64,000 nucleotides of DNA, taken from assembly GCF_003019035.1 (NCBI RefSeq), contig NZ_CP027447.1; one strand, written 5' to 3'. Of this stretch, positions 3,121-27,247 are shown piece by piece. The position numbers and the translations under genes were made by a program. The notes beneath the pieces were generated by a model. It was not told the origin of the DNA. It saw only the letters and a program-made list of their open reading frames with translations, and searched no databases. Position 1 is the first letter of the stretch, and every line of letters starts with the position of its first letter. The DNA comes from Escherichia coli. Its GTDB lineage: Bacteria > Pseudomonadota > Gammaproteobacteria > Enterobacterales > Enterobacteriaceae.

Positions 3121-3130
3121 GCGTTCTCCT

Positions 3131-7178: not shown

Positions 7179-7179
7179 A

Positions 7180-8574: not shown

Positions 8575-8628
8575 CGTTGTTCCTGTTTTTAACCCCTTAC
8601 CCGCAGTGGGGTAAGGGAAGATCCGACA

Positions 8629-9999
8629 TTACTCGTTCAGCAACGTCAGCAGAGTTCGCGTTCGCGCTTCCATCAGCGGCACATCACCGCGCGATTCCAC
8701 ATTCAACCGCACCACCGGTTCGGTGTTGGAGGAGCGCAGGTTAAAGCGCCAGTCGGCAAAGGTCATGCTGATGCCATCGGTGCGATCCACCGCCAGCGCC
8801 TCACGGCTAAAATGCTGTTCCACGCGGTTAATCGCCTCAACGGGTTGCGCCAGTTTGCTGTTGATCTCACCGCTTGCCGGAAACGCTGCCATCCGGTCGC
8901 GCACCAGTTCGCCCAGCGTTTTTCCTTTCAGGCACACCAGTTCGGCGACCAGCAGCCACGGGATCATGCCGCTGTCGCAGTAAGCGAAATCACGGAAATA
9001 GTGGTGGGCGCTCATTTCGCCACCGTAGATGGCGTCTTCCTTGCGCATACGTTCTTTAATAAAGGCGTGTCCGGTTTTCGACATTACCGGGGTGCCGCCT
9101 GCGGCAGTCACCACATCAACGGTGTTCCAGGAGAGACGTGGATCGTGGATGATCTTCGCGCCGGGATTTTTTTCGAGGAACGCTTCTGCCAGCAGGCCGA
9201 CAATGTAGTAGCCCTCAATAAACTGCCCTTTTTCGTCAAACAGGAAACAGCGGTCAAAATCGCCATCAAAAGCAATGCCCATATCCGCGCCGTGTTTAAT
9301 GACCGCATTGCGGGTGTCGTCGCGACATTCCGGCAGCAACGGGTTAGGAATACCGTTGGGGAAATTGCCGTCCGGCGTGTTATGCACTTTGATTAACTCC
9401 ACCGGTGCGCCGAGGGCTTTAAAGCGGGCTTCGATGGCGTCCACCACCGGACCCGCTGCGCCGTTCCCGGAGTTGATCACCAGCTTGAGCGGCGTAAGGT
9501 TTTTGATATTGATATAACCGAACAGGTGATCAACGTATGCATCACGCAGGTTGATTTGCTGATAGCGACCGCGTTTGGTTTCATCAACGGGAGGAAAGTC
9601 GTTGGCTTCTGCCAGACGCTGGACGTCGCGCAGTCCGGTATCGCCGCTGATCGGGCGAGCCCCTTCGCGCACCAGCTTCATGCCGTTGTAATCCATCGGG
9701 TTATGGCTGGCGGTAACTTCGATGCCGCCATCCACGCCGAGATGGAACGTGGCGAAATAGATTTCTTCGGTGCCGGACATACCGATATCCAGCACATCGA
9801 CGCCCGCATCCTGTAAACCTTTCGCCAGCGCCAGTTTTAAGGTTTCGCTGGTGAGGCGGACATCACCGCCTAACACAATGGTTTTCGGTTTGAGAAATTC
9901 GCCATAGGCGCGACCAATGCGCCAGGCGATATCTTCATTCAGTTCTTCGCCTAATTTCCCGCGAATATCATAGGCTTTAAAGCAGGTTAATTTTTTCAT
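8629..9999 (-). CDS. cpsG: Phosphomannomutase
   Basis: Protein [19 protein letters not shown]… with phosphohexomutase active site TASHNP; start taken at internal ATG 9999 rather than ORF-track extension. Confidence 0.93.
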
Positions 10000-10099
10000 G
10001 TCGTTACCCTTTTTCAGGCAATAGTTGGCCCTGACCGAAACGGCCAATTTTGTTTTTTCGTTATTTACCGGAGAATTAATCCGGTTGATTATTCAACGG

Positions 10100-11536
10100 C
10101 TACACCCGTCCGTAGCGATCCGCGAAGCGCACCACATCATCCTCTTCGAGATAAGAGCCGGAGCGCACTTCAATTAAATCGAGCGGAATTTTCCCCGGGT
10201 TTTCCAGGCAGTGCGTCGCCCCCAGCGGAATATAAATGGACTCGTTTTCACCAAGCAGTTTGATATCACCGTCAATGGTGACTTTTGCCGTTCCCGCGAC
10301 CACTACCCAGTGTTCCGCGCGGTGATGGTGCATCTGTACCGACAAGCCCTCGCCCGGTTTCACGGTGATGCGTTTCACCTGGTAGCGATCGCCCGCGTCG
10401 ATAGAGTCATATTTGCCCCACGGGCGATACACTTCGCGATGCACCCGATGCTCATGGCGACCATCGGCTTTGATCTGCTCGACCACTTTTTTCACATCCT
10501 GAACCGCGTTACGGTCGGCAATCAGCACCGCATCTTTGGTCTGCACTACCACCAAATCTTTCACCCCGACGGTGGTGACCAGGCCAGATTCGGCATACAC
10601 ATAGCTGTTTTCGGTTTTGTGATTAATCACATCACCGTGGCAAACGTTGCCCTCGGCGGTGTGGGCGCTGATCTCCCATAAAGAGGACCAGGAGCCGACA
10701 TCGCTCCAGCCTGCATCCATCGGCACCACAACGGCATCTGCCGTTCGTTCCATGACCGCGTAATCCACCGACTCTTCCGGGCAGGCCAGAAACGCTTCTT
10801 CATCCACACGAATAAAATCGAGATCCGGATCGACGGCGCTCATCGCTTTTTCACAGGCGTCGAGAATATCCGGGCGATATTTTTTCAGTTCTTCGAGATA
10901 GCATCCGGCGCGGAACAGGAACATGCCGCTGTTCCAGTAATATTCGCCGCTTGCTACATAGGCCTGGGCGGTTTCCAGATTCGGTTTTTCGACAAACTGC
11001 GCCACTTCAAAGGCCACCGTATCCTGCTCACCCGCAGACACTTCACCGCGACGAATATAGCCATATCCGGTTTCAGGTAGATCCGGCACAATGCCGAAGG
11101 TCACCAGCTTGCCCGCTTCGGCATATGGCATGGCATTACGCACGGCGGCACGGAACGCGTCTTCATCGGCAATCACATGATCCGCCGCCAAGACCAGCAT
11201 TAACGGGTCGCTCTCCGGGCTATGACGTTTTGCCGCCAGCGCCGCCAGCGCAATGGCAGGTGCAGTGTTACGCCCTGCCGGTTCGAGAATAATGTTCTCG
11301 GTGAGTTTATTCAGTTGACGCAGCTGTTCCGCGACAATAAAGCGGTGCTGCTCATTGCAAATCACCACCGGGCTTTCGCACTCCACGCCGTTCAGGCGGC
11401 AGATGGTGGTTTGCAGCATGGTGAGATCGCCTTTCAGGCATAAAAACTGCTTGGGATAAAGTACGCGGGAAAGCGGCCATAAGCGGCTACCGGAGCCACC
11501 TGCCATCACAACTGGATAGAGTTTCGACTGCGCCAT
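10100..11536 (-). CDS. cpsB: Mannose-1-phosphate guanylyltransferase
   Basis: 478-aa [27 protein letters not shown]… (nucleotidyltransferase G-rich loop) with C-terminal cupin. Confidence 0.93.
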
Positions 11537-11538
11537 AA

Positions 11539-12762
11539 TTATCCCCGAATATCATTTATAAATTGACGTAACACGTTCTCTTTATCGAGCGTGCGTTCGG
11601 CATATTCACGTGCCACCGTGTTGTGTTTGGGCAGCAGGAGCGCCTGACGGATCCCCGCCACCAGCGCCTCGACCGATTCCGGTTCTACGCAAACCGCAAT
11701 GCCCGGAAAGGTTTCGCAAAGCTGTCCCAGTTCTGTGTGGGCTTCAGCAGTAATCACCGCGTTACCGCCTACCGCCAGAATATTGGTCAGTTTCGACGGC
11801 AATACGGCATCTGCCGCGCCGCGTTTTTGCACCACCAGATGGCAATCCCCCATCTTCAGCAGTGCGGGTAAAGCGTCATACGATTGCAGCGGGAAAAATT
11901 GCATGTTGCGCAGTCCACGCTGCTGCGCCATTTTTTCCAGCCGCGCTTTGCCGCCGCCCTGCCCGACAATGGCAAAAATCAGCGGTTCATCGCGCAGACG
12001 ATCGGCAGCTTCAATAACGTTTTCCAGCCCCTGCTTTTCACCAATATTGCCGGAGTAAAGAATGATTTTTTTGTTATCCGGCAGGTCAAGCTGGTTACGA
12101 AGGGCGTCAACATCGGCATCTGCAACATGCTGAAAACGGGCAATTTCCGACCAGTTGGGGAAGAAGATGACGTTTTCCGCCGCCACGCCTTTTTCGATGG
12201 CTTTATTCATCATCGAACGCGAAATCGTGGAGACGTTATCGACGTTATTCAGTCCGCTACGTTCGAACGCCGTTGCCAGCTGTGCCACTTTGCCGCCTTT
12301 GCCTTTTCCGGCAAGGCCCAGCCCCAGCATGGCGTCCACTTCGTAATCCTGAATATGTAGCACCGTGCGCGCACCAGACAGTTTCGCCAGCAGGCGCATT
12401 CCCGGCGTGCAAAACAGCGTTGGTACCACGCCGATAATGCGATCCGGCTTCCAGCGACGTTGCGCCATCAGCGGAAAGAAACTGCTGGCGGCAAAACTGC
12501 CGAGATGCAACAGGCGTTTCAGGGTGCTCGGCTGTTTTGGTACGTACAGCGGGCAGCGCCACACCGTGGCGGCCCCCTCTTCTCGTTTGTACCGCCAGGC
12601 GGAATAGTTCTCGCCCACCTGCCATTGCGGGTAGTAAGGCGGTGCGGTAATAACCCGCACCTCATGACCTTGTGCCGCCAGCCATTCCACCATCTCGCCG
12701 GTGTACTTGCCGATGCCGGTTAACTCCGGCGAGTAGTTAATGCCGTAGACCAGTATTTTCAT
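11539..12762 (-). CDS. wcaI: Colanic acid glycosyltransferase WcaI
   Basis: 407-aa GT-B like ORF; cluster position. Confidence 0.9.
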
Positions 12763-13241
12763 AATCCGGGTACTCCGGCACGCTTCTCAGCGAGAAAATA
12801 GGCGCGGCTGTTAGCGTGAACATTGTCACTGGCGAGCAACGCGTCCGGCGTCAGCCAGCGGTAATCGTCATGCTGCTCATCCGGCAGTAACAGCTCTTCT
12901 TCCGCTACTCTGATGCGAAAACCGAGCACCACATAGTGAGTGGTAAAATCCGAGCCGGAGAAGTTATCGTCATAAAAGTGCTGCCAGACACCGTAAAACT
13001 GGCCTGCTGTTATCGGCAGACGCAACCCCAGTTCCGCAAGCGTCAGCCGCTCAAATGCGGCTTCCAGCGTTTCGTCTTTCTGCACGCGCCCTCCCGGCAC
13101 AAACCAGTAACCCTGCGCCGGGCGGTTGGTTCTTTTGCCAAGCAGAAACTCGCCGCGACTGTTCTCGACAATAAAGTCGAGAGAGACAAGCGGTGTGGAG
13201 CGCACTACCGTGGCAAAGTCTTCCTGACGTAAAAACATCAT
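12759..13241 (-). CDS. gmm: GDP-mannose mannosyl hydrolase (Nudix); start may be the second Met at 13238
   Basis: 160-aa ORF with Nudix box ([23 protein letters not shown]). Confidence 0.9.
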
Positions 13242-14206
13242 TACCCCCGAAAGCGGTCTTGATTCTCAAGGAACCACTGGTAAGTGCTGGCAAGCCCCGC
13301 TTCCAGTGAGATTTCGTGATACCAGCCAAGCTGATGCAGGCGCGTCACATCCAGCAGTTTGCGCGGCGTACCATCCGGTTTACTGGCATCAAAAACCACC
13401 CGACCTTTGTAACCCACCACTTTGGCGATGGTTTGCGCCAGCTCGCGGATAGTGCAGTCAACGCCCGTGCCGACGTTAATGTGCGACAGCATCGGTTGGG
13501 TGTTCTCCAGCCAGACTTCGTGCGCCAGCTCCATCACATGAATGCTTGCCGCCGCCATATCATCGACATGCAGAAATTCACGCATCGGTGTACCGCTGCC
13601 CCATACCACCACGTCCGGCGCATTCTGTGCCGTCGCCTCGTGGAAGCGACGCAGCAATGCAGGGATCACATGCGAATTACTCGGGTGGAAGTTGTCATGC
13701 GGGCCATACAGGTTGGTCGGCATGACAGAGCGGTAATCGCGTCCGTACTGGCGGTTGTAAGATTCGCACAGTTTGATCCCGGCGATTTTGGCAATGGCGT
13801 ATGGCTCGTTGGTCGGCTCCAGCGTGCCCTGTAACAGCTCGCTTTCTGCCATCGGCTGTTTTGCCAGTTTTGGGTAGATACAGGACGATCCGAGAAACAG
13901 CAGTTTGTTGACGTCGTTCTGATGCGCGGCGTGAATGATGTTGCTCTCAATCATCATGTTCTGGTAGATGAAATCTGCCGGATATGTGTTGTTGGCAACA
14001 ATGCCGCCCACTTTCGCCGCCGCCAGATAGACCTGGTCAATGCGTTCGCTGGCAAAGAAATCATGCACGGCGCGGCTGTCCAGCAGGTTCAGCTCGTCGC
14101 GGGTACGTAATACCAGTTCCACATCACCGCGCTGTTCGAGCTGACGGGTGATAGCGGAACCGACCATCCCGCGATGACCAGCAATAAAAATGCGTTGTTT
14201 ACTCAT
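13241..14206 (-). CDS. fcl: GDP-L-fucose synthase
   Basis: 321-aa SDR-type [22 protein letters not shown]…. Confidence 0.93.
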
Positions 14207-14208
14207 GC

Positions 14209-15330
14209 TTATGACTCCAGCGCGATCGCCACGTCGTAGCCGTGAGATTTCAGCAGAGAGTGTTTTTTCGCCGCTTCGAGGTCATTAGCCACCATTTCAG
14301 ACACCATCTCTCTGAGGGTGATTTCCGGTTTCCAGCCCAGTTTTTCGTGCGCTTTGGTCGGGTCGCCGAGCAGCGTTTCAACTTCTGCCGGACGGAAGTA
14401 ACGCGGGTCAACGGCGATAATCACATCGCCCGGTTTAACGCCCGGCGCGTCATGCCCGGTGACGGAAACCACAATGCCCTTCTCTTCAACGCCCGTGCCT
14501 TCAAAGCGCAGTTTGATGCCCAGCTGTGCCGCCGCCATTTCCACGAACTGACGCACGGAGTACTGAACGCCGGTAGCGATAACAAAATCTTCCGGTTGTT
14601 CCTGTTGCAGCATCATCCACTGCATTTTTACGTAGTCTTTGGCGTGGCCCCAGTCACGCAGGGAATCCATATTGCCGAGATACAGGCACGACTCCAGCCC
14701 CTGGGCGATATTGGCGATTGCGCGGGTGATTTTGCGAGTGACGAAGGTTTCGCCACGGCGCGGGGATTCATGGTTGAAGAGAATACCGTTGCAGGCGTAC
14801 ATGCCGTAGGATTCGCGGTAGTTAACGGTGATCCAGTAGGCGTACAGTTTGGCGACCGCATACGGAGATCGCGGGTAGAATGGCGTGGTTTCTTTCTGCG
14901 GAATTTCCTGCACCAGACCGTACAGTTCAGAAGTGGAAGCCTGATAGAAACGGGTTTTCTTTTCCAGGCCGAGGAAGCGGATCGCCTCGAGCAGGCGCAG
15001 CGTACCCATCGCATCAACGTCTGCGGTATATTCCGGCGACTCAAAAGAAACCGCAACGTGGCTCATTGCCCCCAGGTTGTACACTTCATCCGGCTGTACT
15101 TCACGCAAAATGCGCGTCAGGTTGGAGGTATCACTCAGGTCGCCATAATGCAGATGGAATTTCGGGTTGCAGGTGTGCGGATCCTGATAAATGTGATCCA
15201 CGCGCTCGGTGTTGAATGACGATGCACGACGCTTAATACCATGCACCTCGTAACCTTTTTCCAGCAGAAACTCTGCCAGGTAAGAACCGTCTTGTCCGGT
15301 TACACCGGTGATGAGAGCGACTTTTGACAT
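14209..15330 (-). CDS. gmd: GDP-mannose 4,6-dehydratase
   Basis: 373-aa [35 protein letters not shown]…. Confidence 0.95.
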
Positions 15331-15356
15331 GTCTTATTCCTCTGTATTTTTTGAAT

Positions 15357-15905
15357 TTATTCAGTTTCAACGCGTTCGCGTATCACCACTGCGGGATTCC
15401 CCCGGCAAACCACATTTGCCGGAAGCGATTTAAAAACACTGCTTCGCGCACCCACGACGGTGCCGTTGCCGATCGTGACGCCAGGGGCAACAAAAACATC
15501 TGTCGCCAGCCAGCATTTCTCGCCAATCACAATAGGCGTGGCGTTAATGGTGAAATGTTGACTTGCATGGTCGTGGCTCCCGGTGCATAAATAACTTTTT
15601 TGCGATATCACCGAATGTGCGCCAATGGTTATTTCACCGAGGGTATATAAATTGACCTCATCACCGACCCACGCGTAATCACCTAAAGTTAATTTCCACG
15701 GATAGGTAATTTTTACTGACGGACGAATAACTACGTTTTTTCCTATTTTTGCCCCGAATAAACGTAATAAAAAAGCCCGCCAGCGATACAATACTTGTGG
15801 CGACCAGGAAAATAATGTTGCCTGTACTGCCCACCACAATTGCACTTTAATAGCGTTGCCGCCCCGGAACCCTTTCGGCACCGAGAAACCGCTTAAATCT
15901 TGCAT
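15357..15905 (-). CDS. wcaF: Colanic acid acetyltransferase WcaF (hexapeptide-repeat)
   Basis: Left-handed beta-helix hexapeptide repeats; start taken at second ATG (MQDLSGF…). Confidence 0.88.
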   Translation of the reverse strand: MQDLSGFSVPKGFRGGNAIKVQLWWAVQATLFSWSPQVLYRWRAFLLRLFGAKIGKNVVIRPSVKITYPWKLTLGDYAWVGDEVNLYTLGEITIGAHSVISQKSYLCTGSHDHASQHFTINATPIVIGEKCWLATDVFVAPGVTIGNGTVVGARSSVFKSLPANVVCRGNPAVVIRERVETE

Positions 15906-15920
15906 CATTTTCCCTTATAT

Positions 15921-16667
15921 TCAGCTTTTGTTATATAAGGCTTTCGTCTTTGAGGTAGTACGCTGGCGTAAATGCCAGGATAATTCTGCCCAGAAGCCAG
16001 GTACATGTAATATTTGCCGTTGGACTTTTTTCGCGTCAGCACACAATTCCATATTATTGGTGGTAGATACCCCACCCATGGAAAATTCAGACACCAGGCC
16101 ATTGAGTTTTCTAAATGCATAACCAGCTTTATACATTTTGGCTGCCAGCGCGTAATCGGAAGAAACTTTATATTCCAGGTCATAACGCCATTTTTTCAAG
16201 CCGGATACCGGAAAAAATATCGCCTGATGACTGGCGGGCAGGCTGTGATAAATATACCAGCCCGGTTTGGCGCTACGTTTAATTTTATGACCGTCGCCAA
16301 AATCCAGCAGCGCATCGCCGGTGATCATCACGTTATCTTTTTGCATTTTTAACTTACGGACAAAATTTGCGGCATCCTGATGAAAAATATCGCCCGAGTT
16401 GAGAAACAACGCGAACTTGCCTTGTGCCATCGCAATGCCTTTATTCATGGCATCGTAGATACCGTTATCTGGCTCGCTGACAAAGCGTAGGTTATAGATA
16501 CCATTGAGATTTTCCAGATACTCACGGGTACCGTCATTGGAACCGCCATCGACAACAATCCATTCGAAGCTGATATCGTCAGCCTGCGCCAGATGCGCCA
16601 ACGAGGCATGTGTTTTGACTATCCCTGCGAGGTTACGAAACGCGACAGTGATTATGCTAAGCAACAT
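15921..16667 (-). CDS. wcaE: Colanic acid glycosyltransferase WcaE (GT2)
   Basis: 248-aa ORF with GT2 signature ([10 protein letters not shown], DxD-like SGD). Confidence 0.9.
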
Positions 16668-16677
16668 GTTCTTATTC

Positions 16678-17895
16678 TTACCTCGTAATATTTAACGCTT
16701 TTCGCAAAATAAACGGACAGACGATTAAAAATGCATATTCCGGGCTAAATATCGAACCGGTAAAAAACAGCGATACCGGAGTAAAAAGATATAATTGCAC
16801 GCGAAAATTGCGGTTATCACCAAAAGCGTTGATCATCATTTTTATCACTTTCCCCATGTACCACAGTGATAAAAACACCGCGAACCAGGAAAAATAAATA
16901 ATCAGCAGATACAAACCATTGTCTATGGTTTTTCCGACATCCGCACCGTTAAATATTCCGAATGATGCGACATATTCATAAAGTGAGCCAAATCTGACTA
17001 CACCGTCAATATGGGTCAAAGAATAACCGACCATCACCAGCGGACCGACAATACGATAATATGATGACGATCCTTCTGTACCTAAATCGCCCAGACGGGT
17101 GGAAATATAAGGAAATGCAATTACCACACCAACCAGGAATACAGCCAGAGAAATCAATGCTAACGGTAACTTTTTCTTAATCGCCTCTTTATTCAGATAT
17201 TGAAATGCCCACTCCAGCAAATAAAACAGGATAAAGGTCATAACCCCTGAAAACGATCCGGATAATATTATCCCTGCGAGAATCATAGCATCGGTTTTAG
17301 GTGTTTTGATACCAAACTGTTTGATGCTGAGCCAAATTGAGATTAATGCCAGAGCGAAAAATGCCGGTTCGAAATAAAGTGCTGTCGTGCGCTTGCCGCC
17401 GAATTTGATGAAATTCAGCACATAGCTGTTGCTGTAAATCAGATATTTCGAAATCGACTCCATAATACTGCTGCCACCGGTGAGGATAATTTGCGCCATC
17501 TCCACTGCCGCCAGCGCCACCACCAGCCCGACCACCAGATAAAAGAAACGTAATATCTTGCGATGGTTGTGTGGCGAAATTGTTTTAAAACGAATACTCC
17601 ACACCATGCCAATAATGATCACAATATAGACAAACAGCATGGTTGAAGTGACGTATTTACTGGCATCCAACGACTGACCAAACAGGTAGTTAAACGCCGT
17701 GAGTCCCGCGCCAATCCCTAAGGCAATCATCAATTTTTTAATGCTGATGCGTTCTAAAAACAGCAGTAACAAGACAGGTAAAAAAGTGACGATGGTGATG
17801 GGGAAACTTTCGCCAAGCTGGGCGATTTTGACGTTAACCAACAGGTAAATCAGCGGCAGCAGCAGGTAGCTACAGATTCTGATAGAAGTTGACAT
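16678..17895 (-). CDS. wcaD: Colanic acid polymerase WcaD (Wzy-type)
   Basis: Polytopic membrane ORF; start taken at [12 protein letters not shown]… (ATG at 17895); AT-rich codon usage. Confidence 0.85.
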
Positions 17896-19087
17896 ACTCC
17901 TCCAGCATCTGTTGTCCACTGTAGGCGGCGCGGCTGCGTTGGCTGAACTCAGCCAGCGTGGTACTAAATATCGCCTGCGCGATTTCCGGTTTGCTTAACT
18001 GCACCAGTTTCAGCACCTCTTCTTCGCTGACGGTTTTACCGCCGGATTTTTGCAGCACTTCCCGCGCCGCATCGCTATGGGTGGCAATCACCGGCACGCC
18101 AATTGATAGCGCCTCACACAAAATCAGTGGGTAGTTATCGACGCGAGAACTGAATACCAGCGCATCCATCTGATTGAGCGCGCTCATCAACTTGCGCTTG
18201 TCAGTTTCAAAGCCGTGATTAACCACGTTGCCAGCGGTGAACGGCGAGAACTTACCAAAGGTATGCAGTTCAATTTTGTCGCCCAGCGCCATCATCTCAC
18301 GCACCAGTTGCTGGTTAGTTTTGCCGTCGTAACGCAGATCATGCGCCACCACCGCGATTTTCGGCTTGCCCTGGGTTTCGCGCACCGGAGGCAAGTCCGC
18401 CAGAATCGCTTCGGTTGCCATATCAATGCCATTATTGATAATCCGGCAACGCCCTGGACCGTACAGACTATTGAAAGCATCAGCCACATGCTGGCTGGGG
18501 GAAATAAACTGACAGCCCAGCGCCAGCATCTCACGGAATAACTGGCGTTTGCCCGCCACCAGCTGGTGTGCGCGATCAATCTTCACCGGCGGATAGTTAT
18601 TTAAGGTCGGGCATTTCTGGCAGCCCGTTTTCCAGCCTTCGCAACCGTCGGTAAAGGCGCAGCGCCCGGTAACGCTCCAGTGGTCGTGCAGCGTCCAGAC
18701 CAGAGTGACATCCGGTTTGTGGTTTTTCACCTTTTCGCAAAAGCGCACCACGCTCTTAAGATTTAGCCAGTAGCTGTGCAGCACATGAAAATGCAGGACC
18801 ACCGGACCCGGTGTGCGAGTAATGGTGCGATATAACTCATTGAAATTGCCAAACAGATCGCGATTAAACAGACGAAACAGGGCAATGTTCGCCATCGCGG
18901 TCATCCGCGGCGTATGTTTGATGACATGCGGATAGTTTTGATGGCTGACGCTCTCTTTGCCGCCTTTGCCGTAGCCGTAGACAAAATGTGACGCCAGCCC
19001 CTGTTGCAGCGCACGCTGGTGGAGATCTAACGCCACACCTGCTGCCCCGCCTTCCGCCAGTCGCACATTGAATTGCAGAATATTCAT
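17870..19087 (-). CDS. wcaC: Colanic acid glycosyltransferase WcaC
   Basis: 405-aa GT4-like ORF; overlaps wcaD start by 26 nt. Confidence 0.9.
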   Translation of the reverse strand: MNILQFNVRLAEGGAAGVALDLHQRALQQGLASHFVYGYGKGGKESVSHQNYPHVIKHTPRMTAMANIALFRLFNRDLFGNFNELYRTITRTPGPVVLHFHVLHSYWLNLKSVVRFCEKVKNHKPDVTLVWTLHDHWSVTGRCAFTDGCEGWKTGCQKCPTLNNYPPVKIDRAHQLVAGKRQLFREMLALGCQFISPSQHVADAFNSLYGPGRCRIINNGIDMATEAILADLPPVRETQGKPKIAVVAHDLRYDGKTNQQLVREMMALGDKIELHTFGKFSPFTAGNVVNHGFETDKRKLMSALNQMDALVFSSRVDNYPLILCEALSIGVPVIATHSDAAREVLQKSGGKTVSEEEVLKLVQLSKPEIAQAIFSTTLAEFSQRSRAAYSGQQMLEEYVNFYQNL

Positions 19088-19572
19088 TTAATTACCTTCA
19101 CTCGCGCTTTTTCTCCCACCACCAGCGCGTTGTCCGGGACAGAGTCGAGCACCACGCTGCCCGCGCCCACGGTGACGTTGTTACCAAGCGTGATATCACC
19201 AAGAATAATGACGTTGGCACCGAGTTCGACGCCGTTGCCAATGTGTGGACATGCCATGTTATCGGCACCACGATTGCCGATAGTGACGCCGTGACGAATG
19301 GTGAAATCATCCCCCGCGACCACGTTTTTATTGATCACCACGGCGTAACCGTGATGGATAGTAAAGCGTCGGCCTATGGTCGCGGCGGCCTGGATTTCAT
19401 AACCGAAAAAGCATTCGGTGATAATGCGATACAGCACCAGCAGCGGGGCCGCCCACAGATTGTTGAGGACGTTCTTTTTGCGCCACACCGAACAAAAATG
19501 AGCGACGCGATAGGCAAGAACCATGCAGCACGGACGTAAACTCCAGCTGTTGGCGCGCAGATCTTCCAGCAT
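19084..19572 (-). CDS. wcaB: Colanic acid acetyltransferase WcaB (serine acetyltransferase-like)
   Basis: 162-aa hexapeptide-repeat ORF. Confidence 0.9.
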   Translation of the reverse strand: MLEDLRANSWSLRPCCMVLAYRVAHFCSVWRKKNVLNNLWAAPLLVLYRIITECFFGYEIQAAATIGRRFTIHHGYAVVINKNVVAGDDFTIRHGVTIGNRGADNMACPHIGNGVELGANVIILGDITLGNNVTVGAGSVVLDSVPDNALVVGEKARVKVIK

Positions 19573-19574
19573 CT

Positions 19575-20414
19575 TTAGCGCCCCCGAATACCATCAGCCA
19601 GACGTTTGCCGTTACGCACCGACAGCAGCGTCAGCAAAGTGCGCCAGGTCATGCGTTTATTGCGGATCTGGTAGAGGGTAAACAGCTGATATTTTTTGCT
19701 GGCGCGGTCGAATTTGTCTTTGTGCTTGCGGTAAAAGTGGAAGTATCCGGAGAATTTTTTCGGTGACGAGGTGATCTGCATTTCACCATGATTGATATGC
19801 AGGATCTGCGTCGCCTCTTCCACTTTCCACGGTTCGCCGTACTCCACCACCATCCGCAGGAAGATGTCGTAATCCTGTGCCGCTTTCAGTTTGGTATCGA
19901 ACAAGCACTCTTTGAAACGCCACGCCCAGGTAAAGACCTGATTGCCAATGATATTGCGTTTGTAGAACAGGCGGCGTGAATACGGCGATTTGGGATACAG
20001 CGGCAAGCTTGCCGGTTGGGAATAGACTTCGCCCTGGCAAACGTAGTCGTTAGCGTACAAAAAGGCGTGAGTGACCAGTTGCTGTTTATGGGCGAGGAAG
20101 ACGCTCAGGCGGTTGGGTGTCCATTCATCATCATCATCGATCCCGGTGATGTATTCCCCTTGCGCCAGCATAATCGCCTGGTTACGTACCGCGCACGCCC
20201 CGCTGTTAATGTCGTTGTGAATGTAAGTGATACGCGGATCGTTGAGGGCGGTGACGTACTGTTGTAGTTGTTCCCAGGAGGTGGAGCAATCATCCACGAT
20301 GATCATCTCCCAGTTACTGTAGTCCTGGCGCAGGACCGATTTTATCGCCCGAATCGCCAGTTGTTGACGGTTCCAGGTCGGCATATAGATTGAAATCAGC
20401 GGATTGTCTTTCAT
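19575..20414 (-). CDS. wcaA: Colanic acid glycosyltransferase WcaA (GT2)
   Basis: 279-aa ORF MKDNPLISIYMPTWNRQQLAIRAIKSV… DDD motif. Confidence 0.9.
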   Translation of the reverse strand: MKDNPLISIYMPTWNRQQLAIRAIKSVLRQDYSNWEMIIVDDCSTSWEQLQQYVTALNDPRITYIHNDINSGACAVRNQAIMLAQGEYITGIDDDDEWTPNRLSVFLAHKQQLVTHAFLYANDYVCQGEVYSQPASLPLYPKSPYSRRLFYKRNIIGNQVFTWAWRFKECLFDTKLKAAQDYDIFLRMVVEYGEPWKVEEATQILHINHGEMQITSSPKKFSGYFHFYRKHKDKFDRASKKYQLFTLYQIRNKRMTWRTLLTLLSVRNGKRLADGIRGR

Positions 20415-20447
20415 AGGTTGTTCTCCCGGCTTATGAGCTGGTTTGCT

Positions 20448-20481
20448 TGCCGGATGCGGCGTGAACGCCTTATCCGGCCTA
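20448..20481. repeat. REP (repetitive extragenic palindromic) element
   Basis: gccggatgcggcgtgaacgccttatccggcctac, canonical E. coli REP consensus. Confidence 0.8.
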
Positions 20482-20506
20482 CGGGGCGGTGCGAATGCAG
20501 GCGTCG

Positions 20507-22669
20507 TTATTTCGCATCCGACTTATATTCGTATTCGTAATAGCCATAATCCTGATACGCGCTGGCGCGGCGGAAGATGGAGTTCAGAATCACCCCTTTC
20601 ACCGGAATACCGTTTTGCTCAAAGCGGCTCAGACTGGTTTCCACTTCTTTCAATGTGTTGACCGCATAACGCGCCACCATTAACGTGGTTCCGACATGAC
20701 GACCAACAATTGCCGCATCGGTCACTGCCAGAATCGGCGGCGTATCAATCAACACCAGGTCGTAGTTTTTACTCGCCCAGTTCACCAGTTCGGCAAAGCG
20801 TTCGCTCATCAACAGTTCAGAAGGATTTGGCGGCACCTGACCGCGCGGGATCAGGTCAAATTTGGCAATAGAGGTCGGTTTAGCAGCGGTAGTAATATCG
20901 CCCTGTCCAATCAGAATTTCCGACAGGCCATTAACGTTATTAGTGCCCAACAGCTCGTGGGTGTAGCCTTTGCGCATATCGCAGTCGATCAACAACACCC
21001 GTTTATTGGTCTGGCTAATCACCGCCGCCAGGTTGGCGCAGACAAAGGTTTTACCGATTGACGGGCTAACCCCGGTCATCATCAACACATTGTTCTGCGC
21101 CTGCATCATCGCGAAGTGCAGACTGGTACGCAGACTACGGATGGCTTCAATCGCCAGATCGGTTGGATTCCCCACCGCCAGTAGCTGGCTCTGTTTATAG
21201 CGTTTAATCCCTTTGATGGTTTTGACGCTATCGCGCGCTTTCTGCCATTCCGACAACGGGATGCTGGCATAGACACTGATACCGTGTTCTTCCAGCACCT
21301 GCGGGCTTTCGATGCCGCGATTAAACAACGAGCGCAGCAGCACACCCACGATAGAGAGCATCAGGCCAAGGATAATCGCGCCGAGGATAATCAGCCCTTT
21401 CTTCGGTTTTAGCACGCCAGGCTGGGTGATTGCCGGGTCAACAATGCGCACATCGCCGACGGTGCTGGCTTCGGTGATTTTCAGCTCCTGCTCTTTATTC
21501 AGCAGTTGCATATAGACCTGTTGACCAGACTCGACATCGCGGGTCAGACGGACAATTTCCTGCTGGGTTTTCGGCATCGCCGTTACGCGACCGTTAAGTT
21601 TGGCTTTTTCGTCTTCCAGCGCCTGCCGTTTCTCCAGCAGCGTGCGGTACGCCGGGTGAACTTTGGTGTACAGCTTGGAGATTTCCGCCTCTTTAAAGGT
21701 CAGTTCGTTCAACTGCGCGTCGATGTTCACCATTGAATCAAGCACCGCTTTCGCTTCCAGCGGCAGATCAACAGAATCTTTATCCTGACGGAAGGCATTC
21801 AGTTTGTTTTCGGCAACATCAAGGCGGCTACGTACTTCCGGTAACTGTTGCGCGAGGAAGGCGAGGCTTTTCGACGCTTCCGCCGATTTGCGCTCAATAT
21901 TTTGCTCCTGATAGTTACGGGCGATACTGTTAAGAATGTCGCGGATCTGTTCGCGATCTTCACCGGTATAAGTCAGGCTCAGTACGCCTGCGTCTTTGCC
22001 GTTCTCCGTTACCGTCAGGCTGTTTTGCAGTTGGTTGATCATCCCCAGCGTGGAGTATTTGGTGACGGTAAACTCACTGCCCGGGCTGGCGTGAATGGCT
22101 TCAACCATCAGCGTGACGCCTTCTTTTTTCAGCATCTGGCCCGCTTGCCCACGGGCGCTAAAGCCGCCATCGCTGCTCAGAGTGTAGTTTTTATCGTCCA
22201 GCACATTAAGCGTAAACACCTGATCCGCCATCTCTTTCGGGCGGTTAAAGATGGTCACTTTTACCGTCTCGTTCTGGCGTCCCATCAGGCGATCCCAGCC
22301 CGCACCGAAAATCGGGAACGTGTTTTTGCTCACTGCAATATCGAGGTCGAGATCGTCCACCGTTTTACCAAGCACCAGACGCGAACGAATCAACTGGATC
22401 TCGGCGTCCGATGCTGGCGGTTTGTTGGCTAATGCCGAACCAATGTCCTGCACTAACGAATTGCCGCTGTTTTGCTCGATTTGTACCAGTGCGTCGGCAC
22501 TATAAATCGGCGTGGCGAAGAAGGTGTAAACCACGGCACAGAGGGCAAATACGGCGGTGATGCCAATTACCCACCAGCGCGCTTCAATGACGGTGCCGAC
22601 CAGGCGACCAATATCGATTTCATCACTGCCCGTTACCGGAGCGGCATGTTGTTTTACTTTTTCTGTCAT
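20507..22669 (-). CDS. wzc: Tyrosine autokinase Wzc (BY-kinase) with C-terminal Tyr-rich tail
   Basis: 720-aa protein MTEKVKQHAAP…; Walker A GVSPSIGKT; C-terminal YQDYGYYEYEYKSDAK. Confidence 0.95.
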   Translation of the reverse strand: MTEKVKQHAAPVTGSDEIDIGRLVGTVIEARWWVIGITAVFALCAVVYTFFATPIYSADALVQIEQNSGNSLVQDIGSALANKPPASDAEIQLIRSRLVLGKTVDDLDLDIAVSKNTFPIFGAGWDRLMGRQNETVKVTIFNRPKEMADQVFTLNVLDDKNYTLSSDGGFSARGQAGQMLKKEGVTLMVEAIHASPGSEFTVTKYSTLGMINQLQNSLTVTENGKDAGVLSLTYTGEDREQIRDILNSIARNYQEQNIERKSAEASKSLAFLAQQLPEVRSRLDVAENKLNAFRQDKDSVDLPLEAKAVLDSMVNIDAQLNELTFKEAEISKLYTKVHPAYRTLLEKRQALEDEKAKLNGRVTAMPKTQQEIVRLTRDVESGQQVYMQLLNKEQELKITEASTVGDVRIVDPAITQPGVLKPKKGLIILGAIILGLMLSIVGVLLRSLFNRGIESPQVLEEHGISVYASIPLSEWQKARDSVKTIKGIKRYKQSQLLAVGNPTDLAIEAIRSLRTSLHFAMMQAQNNVLMMTGVSPSIGKTFVCANLAAVISQTNKRVLLIDCDMRKGYTHELLGTNNVNGLSEILIGQGDITTAAKPTSIAKFDLIPRGQVPPNPSELLMSERFAELVNWASKNYDLVLIDTPPILAVTDAAIVGRHVGTTLMVARYAVNTLKEVETSLSRFEQNGIPVKGVILNSIFRRASAYQDYGYYEYEYKSDAK

Positions 22670-22671
22670 TC

Positions 22672-23115
22672 TTATACCTGCTCTGCGTTCAATGCCTGCG
22701 CCCACTGGCGGGCAGACCGTTCAAGTAATGTGTACACCGCTGCAAACGTTTCCCGGCTTTTGCGATACGGATCGGGGATTTCACATTCGTTATCCCAGTG
22801 ACCAAACAGCATCACTTTGCCGCGCATCTCAGGTGCCATCTCGCATAAGCGTTCGATATGGCGCTTTTCCATGGTCAAAATCAGGTCGTAGTTGCGACAC
22901 AGGCGACGGCTGATTTGCCGTGCACAGTGACCTTCCAGAGACAGTTGATGTTCTGCGGCGACGCTGATAGCAGTAGGGTCAGCGCCCTTACCGACCAGCG
23001 CGCCGAGTCCAGCGGACTCCACTTTCAGCTCCGGGTGATAACGTTGCAGTAAGCGTTCCGCCGTCGGGGAACGGCAAATATTGCCGACACAGACAACTAA
23101 GATGTTGTTAAACAT
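22672..23115 (-). CDS. wzb: Low-molecular-weight protein-tyrosine phosphatase Wzb
   Basis: 147-aa ORF with CVGNICRSP P-loop. Confidence 0.95.
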   Translation of the reverse strand: MFNNILVVCVGNICRSPTAERLLQRYHPELKVESAGLGALVGKGADPTAISVAAEHQLSLEGHCARQISRRLCRNYDLILTMEKRHIERLCEMAPEMRGKVMLFGHWDNECEIPDPYRKSRETFAAVYTLLERSARQWAQALNAEQV

Positions 23116-23120
23116 GACGA

Positions 23121-24260
23121 TTACCAGTTATGAATGTCGCTGGCTGTATCCGTCATGTAACGGACACCGCTAATAGTTGGCAGCAACTGATTGATCAGAC
23201 GGTTCCAGCGGGATACCGGTGCGGTGGTGACATACACCACGTCATAAGGTTGCAGGCGGAATTCTGTCGCCATCACCAGCGACGTGGCATCGGACATATC
23301 CAGCTGGTAGATATTGGCAATCTTGCCGTTACGCCCGCCCTCGCCTTTCAACGGACGAATGACAAAGATGCCGCTGGCGTTGGAGGTGGTCATGTCGATG
23401 CCTTCAGCATTACCCAGGGCTTCAGTCAGGGTCATGCCGCTAAAGTCCATTTTCAGGGTGCTCTGTTTCTTCACTTCACCCATCACAAACACTTTCAGAT
23501 CATCATTACGCGGCACGTAGAGAATATCGCCGGGGTAAAGCAGTCGGTTCTGATTGAGGTCGCCGTTTTGCATCAGCGCCTGCAAAGAAATGCGCTCTTC
23601 ACGACCATTGTGTGTTAGCACCACGTTGCGCCAGTCAGCGGTGTCGGTCAGGCCACCTGCGGCGTTGATGGCGTCGAGAATGGTCAGTGGCACGTTGGTG
23701 ATCGCCTGTTGACCGGATTTATTCACCTGACCGGAGATATAGGCTTTTTGCGAGCGGAAGGCGGCGATATTAACGTCCACCTGCGGGTCAGCGATGTACG
23801 TCGCTAAGCGCCCGGTAATATCACTGCGGATTTCAGCGAGCGTTTTCCCCACCACGTGAACTTTGCCGATATACGGGTAGAACATGGTGCCGTCAGGCTG
23901 TACCCAGTTGCCGGTGTCGCTGGAGCTGCGGTACTGACCGGCTGGCGTGGTGAGTTCCGGGTGATCCCAGACGGTGACATTAAGAACGTCTCCCGGCCCG
24001 ACGCGATACTGATAATTCGCGATCTCACTTTCCAGCGTCATATTGGGGCGCGCTACATTCGGGCGTGGGCGTAATTGGTCAATCAGGCGCGGGGTCAGCG
24101 GATAAACATTCACCATTTTGTCGAGATCGAAATCAGCGTCCTGCTGTTTGATGACGTCTTTCCCCATCGTCGACATATTGCTGCCCGGAAGTACTGTGCA
24201 ACCGCTTATCAAGGTTACTGACACCAATAATGGCATCAATTTCATTTTGGATTTCATCAT
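23121..24260 (-). CDS. wza: Outer-membrane polysaccharide export lipoprotein Wza
   Basis: 379-aa ORF with lipoprotein signal (…[10 protein letters not shown]). Confidence 0.95.
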
Positions 24261-24438
24261 TGTTTATTTATCACTTTGGCAGAGTAATTATCCTGTGCAC
24301 TATTAATAGCAATGTCGCCATGCACATTTACCTTGCAGTTAATTGAATAAAAATTTAACTGGCATCAGTCCTAAAAAAATTGATTTCATCCGCAGGCTAT
24401 TGACAGAATAATTCAGACTGGTCTTTCAGGCATCCAGA

Positions 24439-24478
24439 CACGCTACCGCCCCTGGCTTTTTAGCTACCAATACACTGA
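24439..24478 (-). promoter_or_regulatory. JUMPStart/ops element in the wza (cps operon) leader
   Basis: Plus strand cacgctaccgcc at 24439-24450 is the reverse complement of ops GGCGGTAGCGTG; flanks nearly identical to the copy at 360-399. Confidence 0.75.
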
Positions 24479-24664
24479 TTTAGCTTAATTTTTAAAACCC
24501 TCTCAACATACAGTCGTTGATGAGAAAGGGTTATTGCGGAAATTAACTTCCGAATATAAGGTGACATTATGGTAATTGAATATTGGCTCTCCAATAATGC
24601 AGGAGGAAGTGTTACAGCTAACGGAATAGCAGGCAAGGTAACAATTCGGCAATTGGCTATTTTT

Positions 24665-24678
24665 AAGAATTATATTAA
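24665..24678 (-). promoter_or_regulatory. Candidate RcsAB-box-like sequence upstream of cps operon
   Basis: taagaattatatta resembles the TaAGaatatTCctA consensus recalled from memory; location far upstream of wza is plausible but unverified. Confidence 0.25.
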
Positions 24679-24918
24679 GTGTCATTCAATATGGTTTTTA
24701 GGAGTTTCTTTAGGTTGACAATATTTAATATAGTGTCTCCACATGCGATATTTCTTAAATAATGTTTTATTATTACCACTTTTAATTCAGGGATAATGTG
24801 AGGTTATAAACCTCAAATAATATGAGATAAATAGTGCTGCAACATTGCATTTTTGCCCCGATTTATCCATGATCGAATTGTGACATTTGTCATACAACGA
24901 ATAGGTTTTGTACTTACT

Positions 24919-26502
24919 ATGGAATGGATTGCCGATCCGTCTATCTGGGCCGGGTTAATCACGCTGATTGTGATCGAACTGGTCCTCGGCATTGATAACC
25001 TGGTCTTTATTGCCATCCTCGCCGAAAAACTACCGCCGAAGCAGCGCGACCGCGCACGGGTTACCGGGCTCCTGCTGGCGATGTTAATGCGCCTGTTACT
25101 GCTGGCGTCAATCTCCTGGCTGGTCACCCTGACTCAACCGCTGTTCAGCTTCCGCTCGTTTACCTTTAGCGCCCGCGACTTAATCATGCTGTTTGGTGGT
25201 TTCTTCCTGCTGTTCAAAGCCACGATGGAGCTGAACGAACGGCTGGAGGGGAAAGACAGCAATAACCCCACGCAACGCAAAGGTGCGAAGTTCTGGGGGG
25301 TGGTGACACAAATTGTGGTACTGGACGCCATCTTCTCACTCGACTCGGTGATTACCGCCGTCGGGATGGTCGACCATTTACTGGTCATGATGGCCGCCGT
25401 CGTTATCGCTATTAGCCTGATGTTGATGGCCAGCAAGCCCTTAACGCAATTTGTTAACAGTCACCCGACGATCGTTATTCTCTGCTTAAGCTTCCTGTTG
25501 ATGATTGGCTTTAGCCTGGTGGCAGAAGGTTTCGGCTTCGTCATACCGAAAGGCTACCTGTACGCTGCTATTGGTTTCTCGGTGATGATCGAGGCGCTCA
25601 ATCAGTTGGCTATCTTTAACCGGCGACGTTTTCTTTCCGCTAACCAGACACTGCGCCAGCGGACTACCGAAGCGGTAATGCGCCTGCTTAGCGGGCAAAA
25701 AGAAGATGCGGAACTGGACGCCGAAACCGCGTCCATGCTGGTGGATCATGGTAACCAGCAGATCTTTAATCCGCAGGAACGGCGGATGATTGAGCGGGTA
25801 CTTAATCTTAACCAGCGTACCGTCAGCAGCATTATGACGTCGCGCCACGATATTGAGCATATCGATCTCAACGCGCCGGAAGAAGAAATCCGCCAGTTGC
25901 TGGAGCGAAATCAGCATACGCGGCTGGTGGTTACCGACGGTGATGACGCAGAAGATTTGCTCGGTGTTGTTCACGTTATCGACCTGCTACAACAGTCTCT
26001 GCGCGGCGAACCGCTCAACCTGCGGGTGTTGATTCGCCAGCCGCTGGTGTTCCCGGAAACCTTGCCGTTGTTACCTGCCCTGGAGCAGTTCCGTAATGCC
26101 CGCACGCACTTTGCTTTTGTAGTGGATGAGTTTGGCTCGGTGGAAGGGATTGTGACATTAAGTGACGTCACTGAAACCATTGCCGGTAACTTGCCGAACG
26201 AAGTGGAAGAGATCGACGCCCGCCATGATATTCAGAAAAATGCGGACGGTTCCTGGACGGCGAATGGTCATATGCCGCTGGAAGATCTGGTGCAATATGT
26301 GCCGCTGCCGCTGGATGAAAAACGTGAATATCACACCATTGCCGGGCTATTGATGGAATATTTGCAGCGTATTCCAAAACCTGGCGAAGAAGTTCAGGTG
26401 GGGGATTATTTGCTTAAAACGTTGCAGGTGGAAAGCCATCGCGTGCAGAAGGTGCAAATTATTCCGCTACGTAAGGATGGCGAGATGGAGTACGAGGTGT
26501 GA
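24919..26502 (+). CDS. yegH: Inner-membrane protein YegH (TerC-like N-terminal domain, CBS pair and CorC/transporter-associated C-terminus)
   Basis: Start at [13 protein letters not shown]…; 527 aa; ORF-track 22-codon upstream extension rejected. Confidence 0.9.
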
Positions 26503-26576
26503 TAAAACATCAAATGCGCAGGTTCAAACTGCGCATTTGATTTATACAAAATTTAGTATAATCTAAGGATGGAGTA

Positions 26577-26915
26577 ATGAGAAAAAAGCTGGCTTTTCTT
26601 GATACCAGTCTTGACGATTTACGCGCATTTCCAGAATCGTCTCGACAGGAAATTGGCTATCAACTCGACAGGTTCCAACAAGGGTTAAACCCATACGACT
26701 GGAAACCTTTTTCAACTATCGGCCCTGGTGTGCGAGAGATTCGTACTCGCGATGCTGATGGGATCTATCGCGTCATGTATATCGCAAAATTTGAAGAAGC
26801 GGTTTACGTATTGCATTGTTTTCAAAAGAAAACACAGACTACCAGTCAATCGGATGTTGATTTAGCCAAACGACGCTATAAAGAACTTGTTCAGGAGCGG
26901 AAAAATGAAAATTGA
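26577..26915 (+). CDS. Type II toxin, RelE/ParE-fold, HigB-2/Gp49-like ('addiction module killer protein' family)
   Basis: 112-aa ORF with RBS aaggatgga; sequence pattern …IRTRDADGIYRVMYIAKFEEAVYVLHCFQKKTQ… typical of Gp49/HigB-like toxins; followed by an overlapping XRE antitoxin gene. Confidence 0.7.
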   Translation: MRKKLAFLDTSLDDLRAFPESSRQEIGYQLDRFQQGLNPYDWKPFSTIGPGVREIRTRDADGIYRVMYIAKFEEAVYVLHCFQKKTQTTSQSDVDLAKRRYKELVQERKNEN

Positions 26916-27195: not shown

Positions 27196-27206
27196 TGCTA
27201 TAAATA

Positions 27207-27235: not shown

Positions 27236-27247
27236 GCATAACTTGTC

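What the first reader, a model, noticed from the sequence alone, without database searches (positions are those of the whole stretch)
17870..17919. wcaD/wcaC overlap and start-site ambiguity
The longest wcaD ORF would overlap wcaC by 50 nt. Choosing the internal ATG at 17895 (MSTSIR…) still leaves a 26-nt overlap, larger than the 1-4-nt overlaps elsewhere in the operon. The true wcaD start or translational coupling here is uncertain.
Basis: seen in the sequence. Interest (0 to 1): 0.15.

Follow-up and report, generated by a model that had tools for sequence, protein, structure and literature searches.

The report
wcaC/wcaD 26-base gene overlap
The colanic acid polymerase gene wcaD really does start 26 bases inside the preceding gene wcaC, at the ATG already used in standard annotation, so this is an ordinary, conserved and probably translationally coupled gene junction.

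Summary
On the minus strand of this E. coli window, wcaC is 17870..19087. The longest wcaD ORF starts at GTG 17919 (50-nt overlap) and an in-frame ATG lies at 17895 (26-nt overlap).

The ambiguity resolves in favour of ATG 17895:
- In the window plus 80 other Enterobacteriaceae species, the ATG, the wcaC TAG stop and the 26-nt overlap are present in 81/81.
- The GTG is present in only 50/81. It is the wobble position of a wcaC Ser codon and has no Shine-Dalgarno sequence.
- No downstream start is conserved.
- Sequence variation resumes with wcaD-frame periodicity directly after the wcaC stop.
- RefSeq and the NCBIfam WcaD model use this ATG.

A strong SD (GGAGGA, 17898..17903) lies inside wcaC codons. 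It belongs to a 16-nt block that is invariant even at wcaC synonymous sites; elsewhere in wcaC only 1 of 382 such sites is invariant.

A predicted hairpin (17872..17912) pairs the SD with the region around the wcaC stop. Published in-vitro data (INRI-seq) show no independent initiation on the isolated wcaD leader. Both points fit translational coupling, which is inferred, not shown.

A divergent Klebsiella pair keeps an overlap of 14 nt.

Verdict: already known, low interest.

The parts
17870..19087 (-). wcaC, colanic acid glycosyltransferase, 405 aa, stop TAG at 17870..17872
   Evidence: ORF, translation. Full-length match to TIGR04015 (1-405 of 405, 895 bits). RefSeq annotation.
16678..17895 (-). 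wcaD, colanic acid polymerase (Wzy-type), 405 aa, from ATG 17895
   Evidence: TIGR04010 profile positions 1-404 align to residues 9-412 of the 413-aa long ORF. RefSeq uses this start. Database homologues are 405-407 aa. The ATG is present in 81/81 species.
17870..17895 (-). 26-nt dual-coding overlap: wcaC codons Y397-L405 plus stop, and wcaD codons 1-9
   Evidence: Same length and same TAG stop in 81/81 species. The overlap is nearly invariant. Variation resumes at +26 with period 3 in the wcaD frame.
17898..17903 (-). Shine-Dalgarno sequence GGAGGA for wcaD, inside wcaC codons Leu-Glu-Glu; the GGAGG core ends 3 nt before the AUG
   Evidence: Duplex with the 16S 3' tail is -9.3 kcal/mol, against +1.1 for the GTG. 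Invariant in 81/81 species, including wcaC third positions.
17898..17913 (-). 16-nt invariant block (-18..-3) upstream of the wcaD ATG, conserved at wcaC synonymous sites
   Evidence: Third positions of wcaC codons Q392, L394 and E395 are invariant. Only 1 of 382 degenerate third positions elsewhere in wcaC is invariant. It contains the longest invariant run in wcaC, 14 columns in the 73-species set against 8 for the next longest. Other junctions of the operon in the same genomes show no such block.
17872..17912 (-). Predicted RNA hairpin (-17..+23): SD in the 5' arm, AUG in the loop, 3' arm reaching the first base of the wcaC stop codon
   Evidence: -16.7 kcal/mol, z = -3.0 in the window. The same outer stems are predicted in all 43 distinct species sequences, with z from +0.2 to -3.6. 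98.7% of cells are paired, but there are no compensatory changes because the columns are invariant. Predicted only.
17917..17919 (-). GTG that opens the longest ORF; not the start
   Evidence: GTG in 50/81 species and GCG in 31/81, because its middle base is the wobble of wcaC Ser AGT/AGC. No SD. The next codon down is hypervariable in the wcaD frame.

Best explanation
wcaD is translated from the ATG at 17895, 26 nt inside wcaC and in the other reading phase from ATGA-type overlaps. Its ribosome-binding site (GGAGGA, 17898..17903) is written into the wcaC codons Leu-Glu-Glu. The overlap persists because both protein ends are needed. The WcaC C-terminal tail is conserved down to a 47%-identical Klebsiella homologue, and WcaD needs its short charged N-terminus before the first hydrophobic segment. 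Inferred step: wcaD initiation depends on ribosomes translating wcaC. The SD and its flank can pair with the sequence around the wcaC stop. A ribosome reading through or terminating at TAG 17870..17872 would open that structure. Either a new 30S subunit, or the terminating ribosome after moving back about 20 nt, could then start at the SD-marked AUG.
For: Shown:
- The ATG, the 26-nt overlap and the TAG stop are present in 81/81 species.
- The GTG is present in 50/81 species and has no SD.
- Variation with wcaD-frame periodicity begins immediately after the wcaC stop, so the start must lie within or above the overlap, and the ATG is the only start codon there.
- Position 1 of the TIGR04010 profile aligns to this Met.
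- RefSeq annotates this start, and homologues are 405-407 aa.
- A 51%-identical homologue, P0141, begins MSNTIKLSSY and is called with a 26-nt overlap.

Support for coupling:
- The block -18..-3 is invariant at wcaC synonymous sites, against a background of 1/382, and no other junction of the operon shows this.
- The hairpin is predicted at -16.7 kcal/mol with z = -3.0.
- The wcaD leader has the second-highest predicted opening energy in the operon, 13.1 kcal/mol.
- In INRI-seq (PMC9825163, Tables S2-S4) the isolated wcaD leader (-30..+150) gave 0 footprints in 5/5 replicates, although the transcript was present at 96.7 CPM, and no alternative start was reported.
- All four genes of the operon whose start lies inside the upstream gene were undetected, against 4 of 16 others (Fisher p = 0.014).
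- The mechanistic models come from the review PMC12548453.
Against: - There is no direct in-vivo evidence for the start. Ribo-RET signal is 0 because the operon is silent in standard culture, and the N-terminomics supplement does not list wcaD.
- About 26% of all annotated starts are undetected in INRI-seq, so silence is weak evidence.
- The hairpin has no covariation support. Its z-score is near zero in several species and -0.43 for Salmonella in a 65-nt context. The divergent Klebsiella-type junctions show no significant structure.
- The GGAGG-to-AUG spacer of 3 nt is short, which alone could explain weak independent initiation.
Confidence: 0.9

Rival explanations
1. wcaD starts at the GTG at 17919, giving a 413-aa protein and a 50-nt overlap, either exclusively or as a second, longer isoform.
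For: It opens the longest ORF. GTG is present in E. coli and in 50/81 species. The wcaD-frame peptide NRCWRS just downstream looks conserved. One database fragment, P0168, is called from it.
Against: It is GCG in 31/81 species. It has no SD, with a best duplex of +1.1 kcal/mol. The codon after it is hypervariable and changes the amino acid in the wcaD frame (H = 1.8 and 1.0 at -20 and -19). The NRCWRS conservation is explained by the SD and structure block, since no start codon exists between -18 and -3. The curated profile starts at the ATG.
Confidence: 0.03
2. The true start lies downstream of the wcaC stop (for example TTG at 17841), so there is no real overlap.
For: This would give the common non-overlapping arrangement. 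A TTG exists at +54 in this window.
Against: That codon is CTG in K-12-like E. coli, and is CTG in 58, GTG in 19 and TTG in 4 of 81 species. It has no SD. Codons 9-18 of wcaD already show third-position-only variation directly after the wcaC stop. Such a start would remove most of the first hydrophobic segment. INRI-seq reports no alternative start within +150.
Confidence: 0.02
3. wcaD starts at ATG 17895 but is initiated independently of wcaC. The invariant block is simply a strong ribosome-binding site and the hairpin is a by-product of dual coding.
For: The SD is strong. Hairpin z-scores are modest in most species. There is no covariation. The divergent Klebsiella-type junctions lack structure. 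One in four starts is missed by INRI-seq anyway.
Against: An SD alone does not explain the invariance at the wcaC synonymous site -14, the near-invariance at -17 (76/81 species) and the invariant first base of the Leu codon at -10; all three lie in predicted base pairs. The isolated leader is silent in vitro despite its strong SD. All overlap-start genes of the operon behave the same way.
Confidence: 0.35
4. A programmed +1 frameshift at the junction makes a WcaC-WcaD fusion protein. The SD-like GGAGGAG, followed by UAU, resembles the prfB frameshift stimulator.
For: wcaD lies in the +1 frame relative to wcaC, and a conserved SD-like sequence sits just upstream of the frame junction.
Against: There is no shift-prone codon and no stop or rare codon in the A site; the codons are GUC-AAC or GUC-UCG. 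A conserved AUG with correct N-terminal homology is present. Full-length database proteins are separate and 405-407 aa. The longer entries are assembly artefacts or chimeras (P0001, P0002) or, for P0112 (602 aa), an entry that also carries a glycosyltransferase-2 domain and was not examined further.
Confidence: 0.01

Closest known systems
Annotated E. coli K-12 wcaC (b2057) / wcaD (b2056) junction
   Same: Same genes, same ATG start, same 26-nt overlap. A K-12-like strain is identical from -40 to +32 around the start.
   Different: Nothing of substance. The window strain differs from K-12 by a few synonymous changes further into wcaD.
Long-overlap translational coupling in RNA phages (MS2 coat-lysis at -50 nt, fr coat-lysis at -38 nt), as summarised in PMC12548453
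   Same: The downstream start lies tens of nucleotides upstream of the upstream gene's stop. The start region is predicted to be base-paired. Termination of the upstream gene would activate it by unfolding the RNA or by back-scanning.
   Different: Here the downstream gene has a strong SD, the overlap is shorter (26 nt), and neither the structure nor the dependence on upstream translation has been tested.
ATGA / TGATG (-4 / -1 nt) coupled gene pairs, the common kind of overlap
   Same: Co-directional genes in one operon with the start inside the upstream ORF. Three such pairs occur in this same operon, and like wcaD they are silent as isolated leaders in INRI-seq.
   Different: The overlap is 26 nt, in the other phase, and imposes dual coding on nine codons of each gene. 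According to PMC3887535, 4-nt overlaps make up about 45% of all overlaps, and long overlaps are mostly of this other phase.
Divergent wcaC-wcaD pair in Klebsiella pneumoniae capsule loci (L086)
   Same: Homologous proteins (47% and 44% identity). The wcaD start again lies inside the conserved WcaC tail, at a Tyr codon followed by G.
   Different: The overlap is 14 nt rather than 26, because the start uses the second Tyr of the tail and the N-terminus is 4 residues shorter. The DNA is low in GC, the SD is weak, and no significant hairpin is predicted.

Membership tests
WcaD, colanic acid polymerase (NCBIfam TIGR04010, equivalog) | Full-length profile match above the curated cut-off | tested here: met
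   873.2 bits against a cut-off of 589.65. Profile positions 1-404 of 404 align to residues 9-412 of the 413-aa long ORF, so the profile begins at the ATG 17895 Met.
WcaD, colanic acid polymerase (NCBIfam TIGR04010, equivalog) | Position in the wca cluster between wcaC and wcaE | tested here: met
   Gene order wza-wzb-wzc-wcaA-B-C-D-E-F-gmd-fcl-gmm-wcaI... in the identical RefSeq stretch.
WcaD, colanic acid polymerase (NCBIfam TIGR04010, equivalog) | Polymerase activity on the colanic acid repeat unit | not testable with these tools
   This is a biochemical or genetic property.
WcaC glycosyltransferase (NCBIfam TIGR04015, equivalog) | Full-length profile match that includes the C-terminal tail lying in the overlap | tested here: met
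   895.3 bits against a cut-off of 784.85, covering 1-405 of 405. The tail motif is conserved in a 47%-identical homologue.
Translationally coupled overlapping gene pair (RNA-unfolding / reinitiation type) | Co-directional genes with the downstream start inside the upstream ORF | tested here: met
   26-nt overlap, conserved in 81/81 species.
Translationally coupled overlapping gene pair (RNA-unfolding / reinitiation type) | Downstream ribosome-binding site sequestered in structure that upstream ribosomes traverse | tested here: inconclusive
   The predicted hairpin has z = -3.0 in the window, but z ranges from +0.2 to -3.6 across species. 98.7% of cells are paired and there is no covariation. 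Synonymous-site invariance is consistent with structure.
Translationally coupled overlapping gene pair (RNA-unfolding / reinitiation type) | Little or no independent initiation on the isolated downstream leader | tested here: inconclusive
   Published INRI-seq gives 0 footprints in 5/5 replicates at 96.7 CPM of transcript. However, 26% of all starts are undetected in that assay.
Translationally coupled overlapping gene pair (RNA-unfolding / reinitiation type) | Downstream expression falls when upstream translation is blocked | not testable with these tools
   This needs reporter fusions with premature stop codons in wcaC.
Programmed +1 ribosomal frameshift (prfB-like) | Shift-prone P-site codon followed by a stop or a slowly decoded A-site codon | tested here: not met
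   The codons at the junction are UAU GUC AAC (or UCG). There is no re-pairing option and no stop.

The most novel reading that the evidence does not exclude
The invariant 16-nt block and the hairpin (17872..17912) form a dedicated coupling device conserved across colanic-acid-producing Enterobacteriaceae. In this reading wcaD can only be translated by, or just after, a ribosome that has finished wcaC, in the manner of MS2 coat-lysis. This would hold the membrane polymerase at a fixed low ratio to the glycosyltransferase. E. coli would have tightened the device with three substitutions (+5 to +7), of which those at +6 and +7 add two base pairs.
Probability: 0.35. Interest if true: 0.3.

Novelty: already known. 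Interest (0 to 1): 0.12.

Why it matters
It matters little beyond annotation hygiene. The analysis confirms that the database start of wcaD is right and that the unusual 26-nt overlap is a real, selected feature and not an ORF-calling artefact. Anyone refactoring or codon-optimising the colanic acid operon should know that the last nine codons of wcaC also encode the wcaD N-terminus, and that the six codons before them carry its ribosome-binding site. If the coupling hairpin is real, it would be a tidy chromosomal example of long-overlap coupling, of a kind known mainly from RNA phages.

Tried and rejected
- GTG 17919 as start: rejected on conservation and lack of SD.
- Downstream starts: rejected.
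- Covariation test of the hairpin: uninformative, because 10 of 14 pairs never vary and none changes on both sides.
- Search for intermediate-divergence homologues to obtain covariation: the family is tight. All 120 listed hits are at least 83% identical. The 50%-cluster search gave mostly fragments, and L087 and L088 turned out to be ordinary Enterobacteriaceae junctions in degraded genes. The truly divergent junctions, L086 and L089, use a different start and have no alignable hairpin. P0141 has no DNA available.
- Direct evidence for the start: Ribo-RET supplements are not held, its values as quoted in INRI-seq Table S2 are 0, and the TRAINSPOTTER N-terminomics supplement has no wcaD entry.
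- Literature search for wcaC/wcaD overlap: nothing specific found.
- Known RNA family: only a sub-threshold RsmY hit inside wcaC (16 bits against a gathering score of 57), taken as chance.
- Internal promoter or terminator at the junction: none found.
- +1 frameshift fusion: no slippery site. The two longer entries examined (P0001, P0002) are assembly chimeras or duplications.
- The 1-nt length difference at the junction in strain UTME-10 belongs to a genome that annotates both genes as frameshifted pseudogenes, probably assembly noise.

Full report
**What is there.** The window is E. coli chromosome, 100% identical to strain SCU-301 over window positions 1..27400. The finding lies in the colanic acid (wca/cps) operon on the minus strand. 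The ORF listing gives wcaC as 17870..19087 (405 aa) and the longest wcaD ORF as 16678..17919 (413 aa, GTG start), sharing 50 nt. The long form reads [23 protein letters not shown].... NCBIfam equivalog models identify both proteins at full length. The other overlaps in the operon are three 4-nt ATGA junctions (wcaB/C, gmm/wcaI, wcaK/L), and all remaining junctions are gaps.

**Which start.** RefSeq annotates wcaD from the ATG with a 26-nt overlap, both in the identical genome and in a K-12-like strain. The TIGR04010 profile begins exactly at that Met: profile 1-404 aligns to residues 9-412 of the long ORF. Homologues in the protein databases are 405-407 aa.

I fetched the junction from one genome each of 80 other Enterobacteriaceae species, with WcaD 82-94% identical. 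Positions below are relative to the A of the ATG.
- The ATG is present in 81/81, the wcaC stop is TAG in 81/81, and the overlap is 26 nt in 81/81.
- The GTG at -24 is present in only 50/81 and is GCG in the rest. Its middle base is the wobble of a wcaC Ser codon (AGT/AGC), and the following wcaD-frame codon is hypervariable.
- The position of the first upstream in-frame stop wanders from -42 to -231, so nothing upstream of the ATG is held open as wcaD coding sequence.
- The ATG is preceded by GGAGGA at -8..-3 (duplex with the 16S tail -9.3 kcal/mol). The GTG has no SD (+1.1 kcal/mol).

**No downstream start.** Immediately after the wcaC stop, at +26, variation resumes at every third base in the wcaD frame (+26, +29, +32, +35, +38, +44...). 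This region is therefore already translated as WcaD, and the start must lie within or above the overlap. ATG 17895 is the only start codon there. The first canonical downstream candidate, TTG at +54, is CTG in K-12-like E. coli and is a start codon in only 23/81 species.

**More divergent relatives.**
- P0141 (51% identical) begins MSNTIKLSSY and is called with a 26-nt overlap, though no DNA was available.
- A Klebsiella pneumoniae capsule-locus pair (47% and 44% identical to WcaC and WcaD) and a related metagenomic contig also place the wcaD start inside the conserved WcaC tail, but 12 nt further down (14-nt overlap). Their start uses the second Tyr codon of the tail, and in-frame stops 9-21 nt upstream fix it.
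- The overlapped arrangement is therefore old, and the first four residues of E. coli WcaD are not universal.

**Extra constraint at the junction.** Columns -18..-3 are invariant in 81 species apart from five changes at -17. This includes the third positions of wcaC codons Q392, L394 and E395. In the 73 species that align without indels, only 1 of 382 degenerate third positions in the rest of wcaC is invariant, and the median entropy is 1.21 bits. The block contains the longest invariant run in wcaC, 14 columns against 8 for the next longest. The wcaB-to-wcaC junction in the same genomes shows only a short SD-sized dip, with freely varying third positions up to the start. The SD accounts for -8..-3. 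The remaining sites (-17, -14, -10) need another explanation.

**Candidate structure.** RNAfold predicts a hairpin from -17 to +23 (window 17912..17872). The SD is fully paired in the 5' arm, the AUG lies in the loop, and the 3' arm reaches the first base of the wcaC stop. Its energy is -16.7 kcal/mol with z = -3.0 (2 of 200 shuffles fold as well). The three unexplained sites all fall in predicted pairs. The same outer stems are predicted in all 43 distinct species sequences (-10 to -18 kcal/mol, 4-6 of 6 SD bases paired), but z ranges from +0.2 to -3.6. In a 65-nt context the Salmonella version is not significant (z = -0.43). Counting pairs gives 98.7% paired cells. Two pairs change on one side in a compatible way (U-A/U-G at -12:+18, A-U/G-U at -17:+23). 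There are no compensatory changes, because 10 of 14 pairs never vary. The divergent Klebsiella-type junctions have no significant fold. The hairpin is therefore plausible but unproven.

**Published experiment.** INRI-seq (PMC9825163) translated, in a purified system with retapamulin, one synthetic transcript per E. coli K-12 gene, made of 30 nt of leader plus 150 nt of coding sequence. The K-12-like strain examined (9A) is identical to the window from -40 to +32.
- For wcaD (b2056) the start-codon peak is 0 in all five replicates and the gene is scored 'not identified'. The in-vivo Ribo-RET value quoted alongside is also 0.
- The transcript was present at 96.7 CPM, similar to detected neighbours.
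- Table S3 lists no alternative start for b2056.
- Across the operon, all four genes whose start lies inside the upstream gene (wcaC, wcaD, wcaI, wcaL) are undetected, against 4 of 16 others (Fisher p = 0.014). For wcaC the transcript was scarce (4 CPM).
- My opening-energy calculation on the same -30..+150 constructs ranks wcaB (13.6), wcaD (13.1) and wcaL (12.0 kcal/mol) highest. All three have strong SDs and are silent.

Caveats apply. 1091 of 4150 annotated starts are undetected in that assay; the authors link non-detection to stronger structure. The window strain is not K-12.

**Mechanism.** Shown: the start codon, the SD, the conserved overlap and the extra-coding constraint. Inferred: wcaD initiation is coupled to wcaC translation. 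Coupling could work by ribosomes melting the SD-containing structure (RNA-unfolding model), by the terminating ribosome moving back about 20 nt to the SD-marked AUG (scanning model), or by both. Both models, and long-overlap precedents (MS2 coat-lysis -50 nt, fr -38 nt), are described in PMC12548453. A ribosome stopped at the TAG would cover much of the 3' arm and leave the SD and AUG single-stranded; this is geometric reasoning from general knowledge of ribosome footprints, not a result. The GGAGG core ends only 3 nt before the AUG. From my own knowledge this is at the short end of functional spacings, and it could also weaken independent initiation.

**Comparison with what is known.** In surveys of prokaryotic overlaps, about 45% are 4 nt long, and long overlaps are mostly in the phase seen here (PMC3887535). 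More than 80% are under 30 bp (PMC12548453). A 26-nt overlap is thus uncommon but unremarkable. The start is the one already in RefSeq and NCBIfam. I found no paper that discusses this junction specifically.

**Rejected alternatives.**
- An internal promoter or terminator: none found.
- A known RNA family: only a sub-threshold chance hit.
- A prfB-like +1 frameshift: no shift-prone codon, and the two longer database entries examined are assembly artefacts.

**Verdict.** The overlap is real and conserved. Coupling is likely but untested. This is already known biology of low interest; the only mildly new element is the synonymous-site-invariant block and its candidate SD-sequestering hairpin.

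Noticed in passing
L086:2770-5203 (Klebsiella pneumoniae capsule locus) and L089:608-1334: A divergent, low-GC wcaC-wcaD pair (47% and 44% aa identity) keeps the start-inside-upstream-gene arrangement, but with a 14-nt overlap. The start uses the second conserved Tyr codon of the WcaC tail, and the gene order differs from the E. coli operon.
   Followed up: partly
window 19572 (wcaB start) and 4351 (wcaL start), minus strand: Like wcaD, wcaB and wcaL combine a strong SD with the highest predicted leader opening energies in the operon (13.6 and 12.0 kcal/mol). They give no peak as isolated leaders in published INRI-seq, which suggests that several coupled steps exist in the operon.
   Followed up: partly
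window about 26577-27195, + strand: A RelE/ParE-family toxin gene and an HTH gene, overlapping by 11 nt, sit between asmA and yegH in the identical RefSeq stretch. This is the next-largest co-directional overlap seen in the annotated region.
   Followed up: no
window about 24569-24718: RefSeq annotates a 49-aa hypothetical protein in the long leader between yegH and wza, upstream of the colanic acid operon.
   Followed up: no
window 26798-64000: The window is base-for-base identical to E. coli SCU-301 over 1..27400. An ungapped comparison of the remainder gives 3318 mismatches, probably from an indel or a strain difference beyond asmA. In SCU-301 that region carries a frameshifted mdtC, which I did not check in the window.
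   Followed up: no
window 17966-18076, minus strand (inside wcaC): A weak Rfam hit to RsmY (16.3 bits against a gathering score of 57, E = 0.13), taken as chance.
   Followed up: no
window 17888-17890 (wcaD +5..+7): E. coli differs from nearly all other genera by three adjacent substitutions (TCTCG to TCAAC). They change WcaD R3 to T and WcaC S399 to N, and add two base pairs to the top of the predicted hairpin (-16.7 against about -12.4 kcal/mol).
   Followed up: partly
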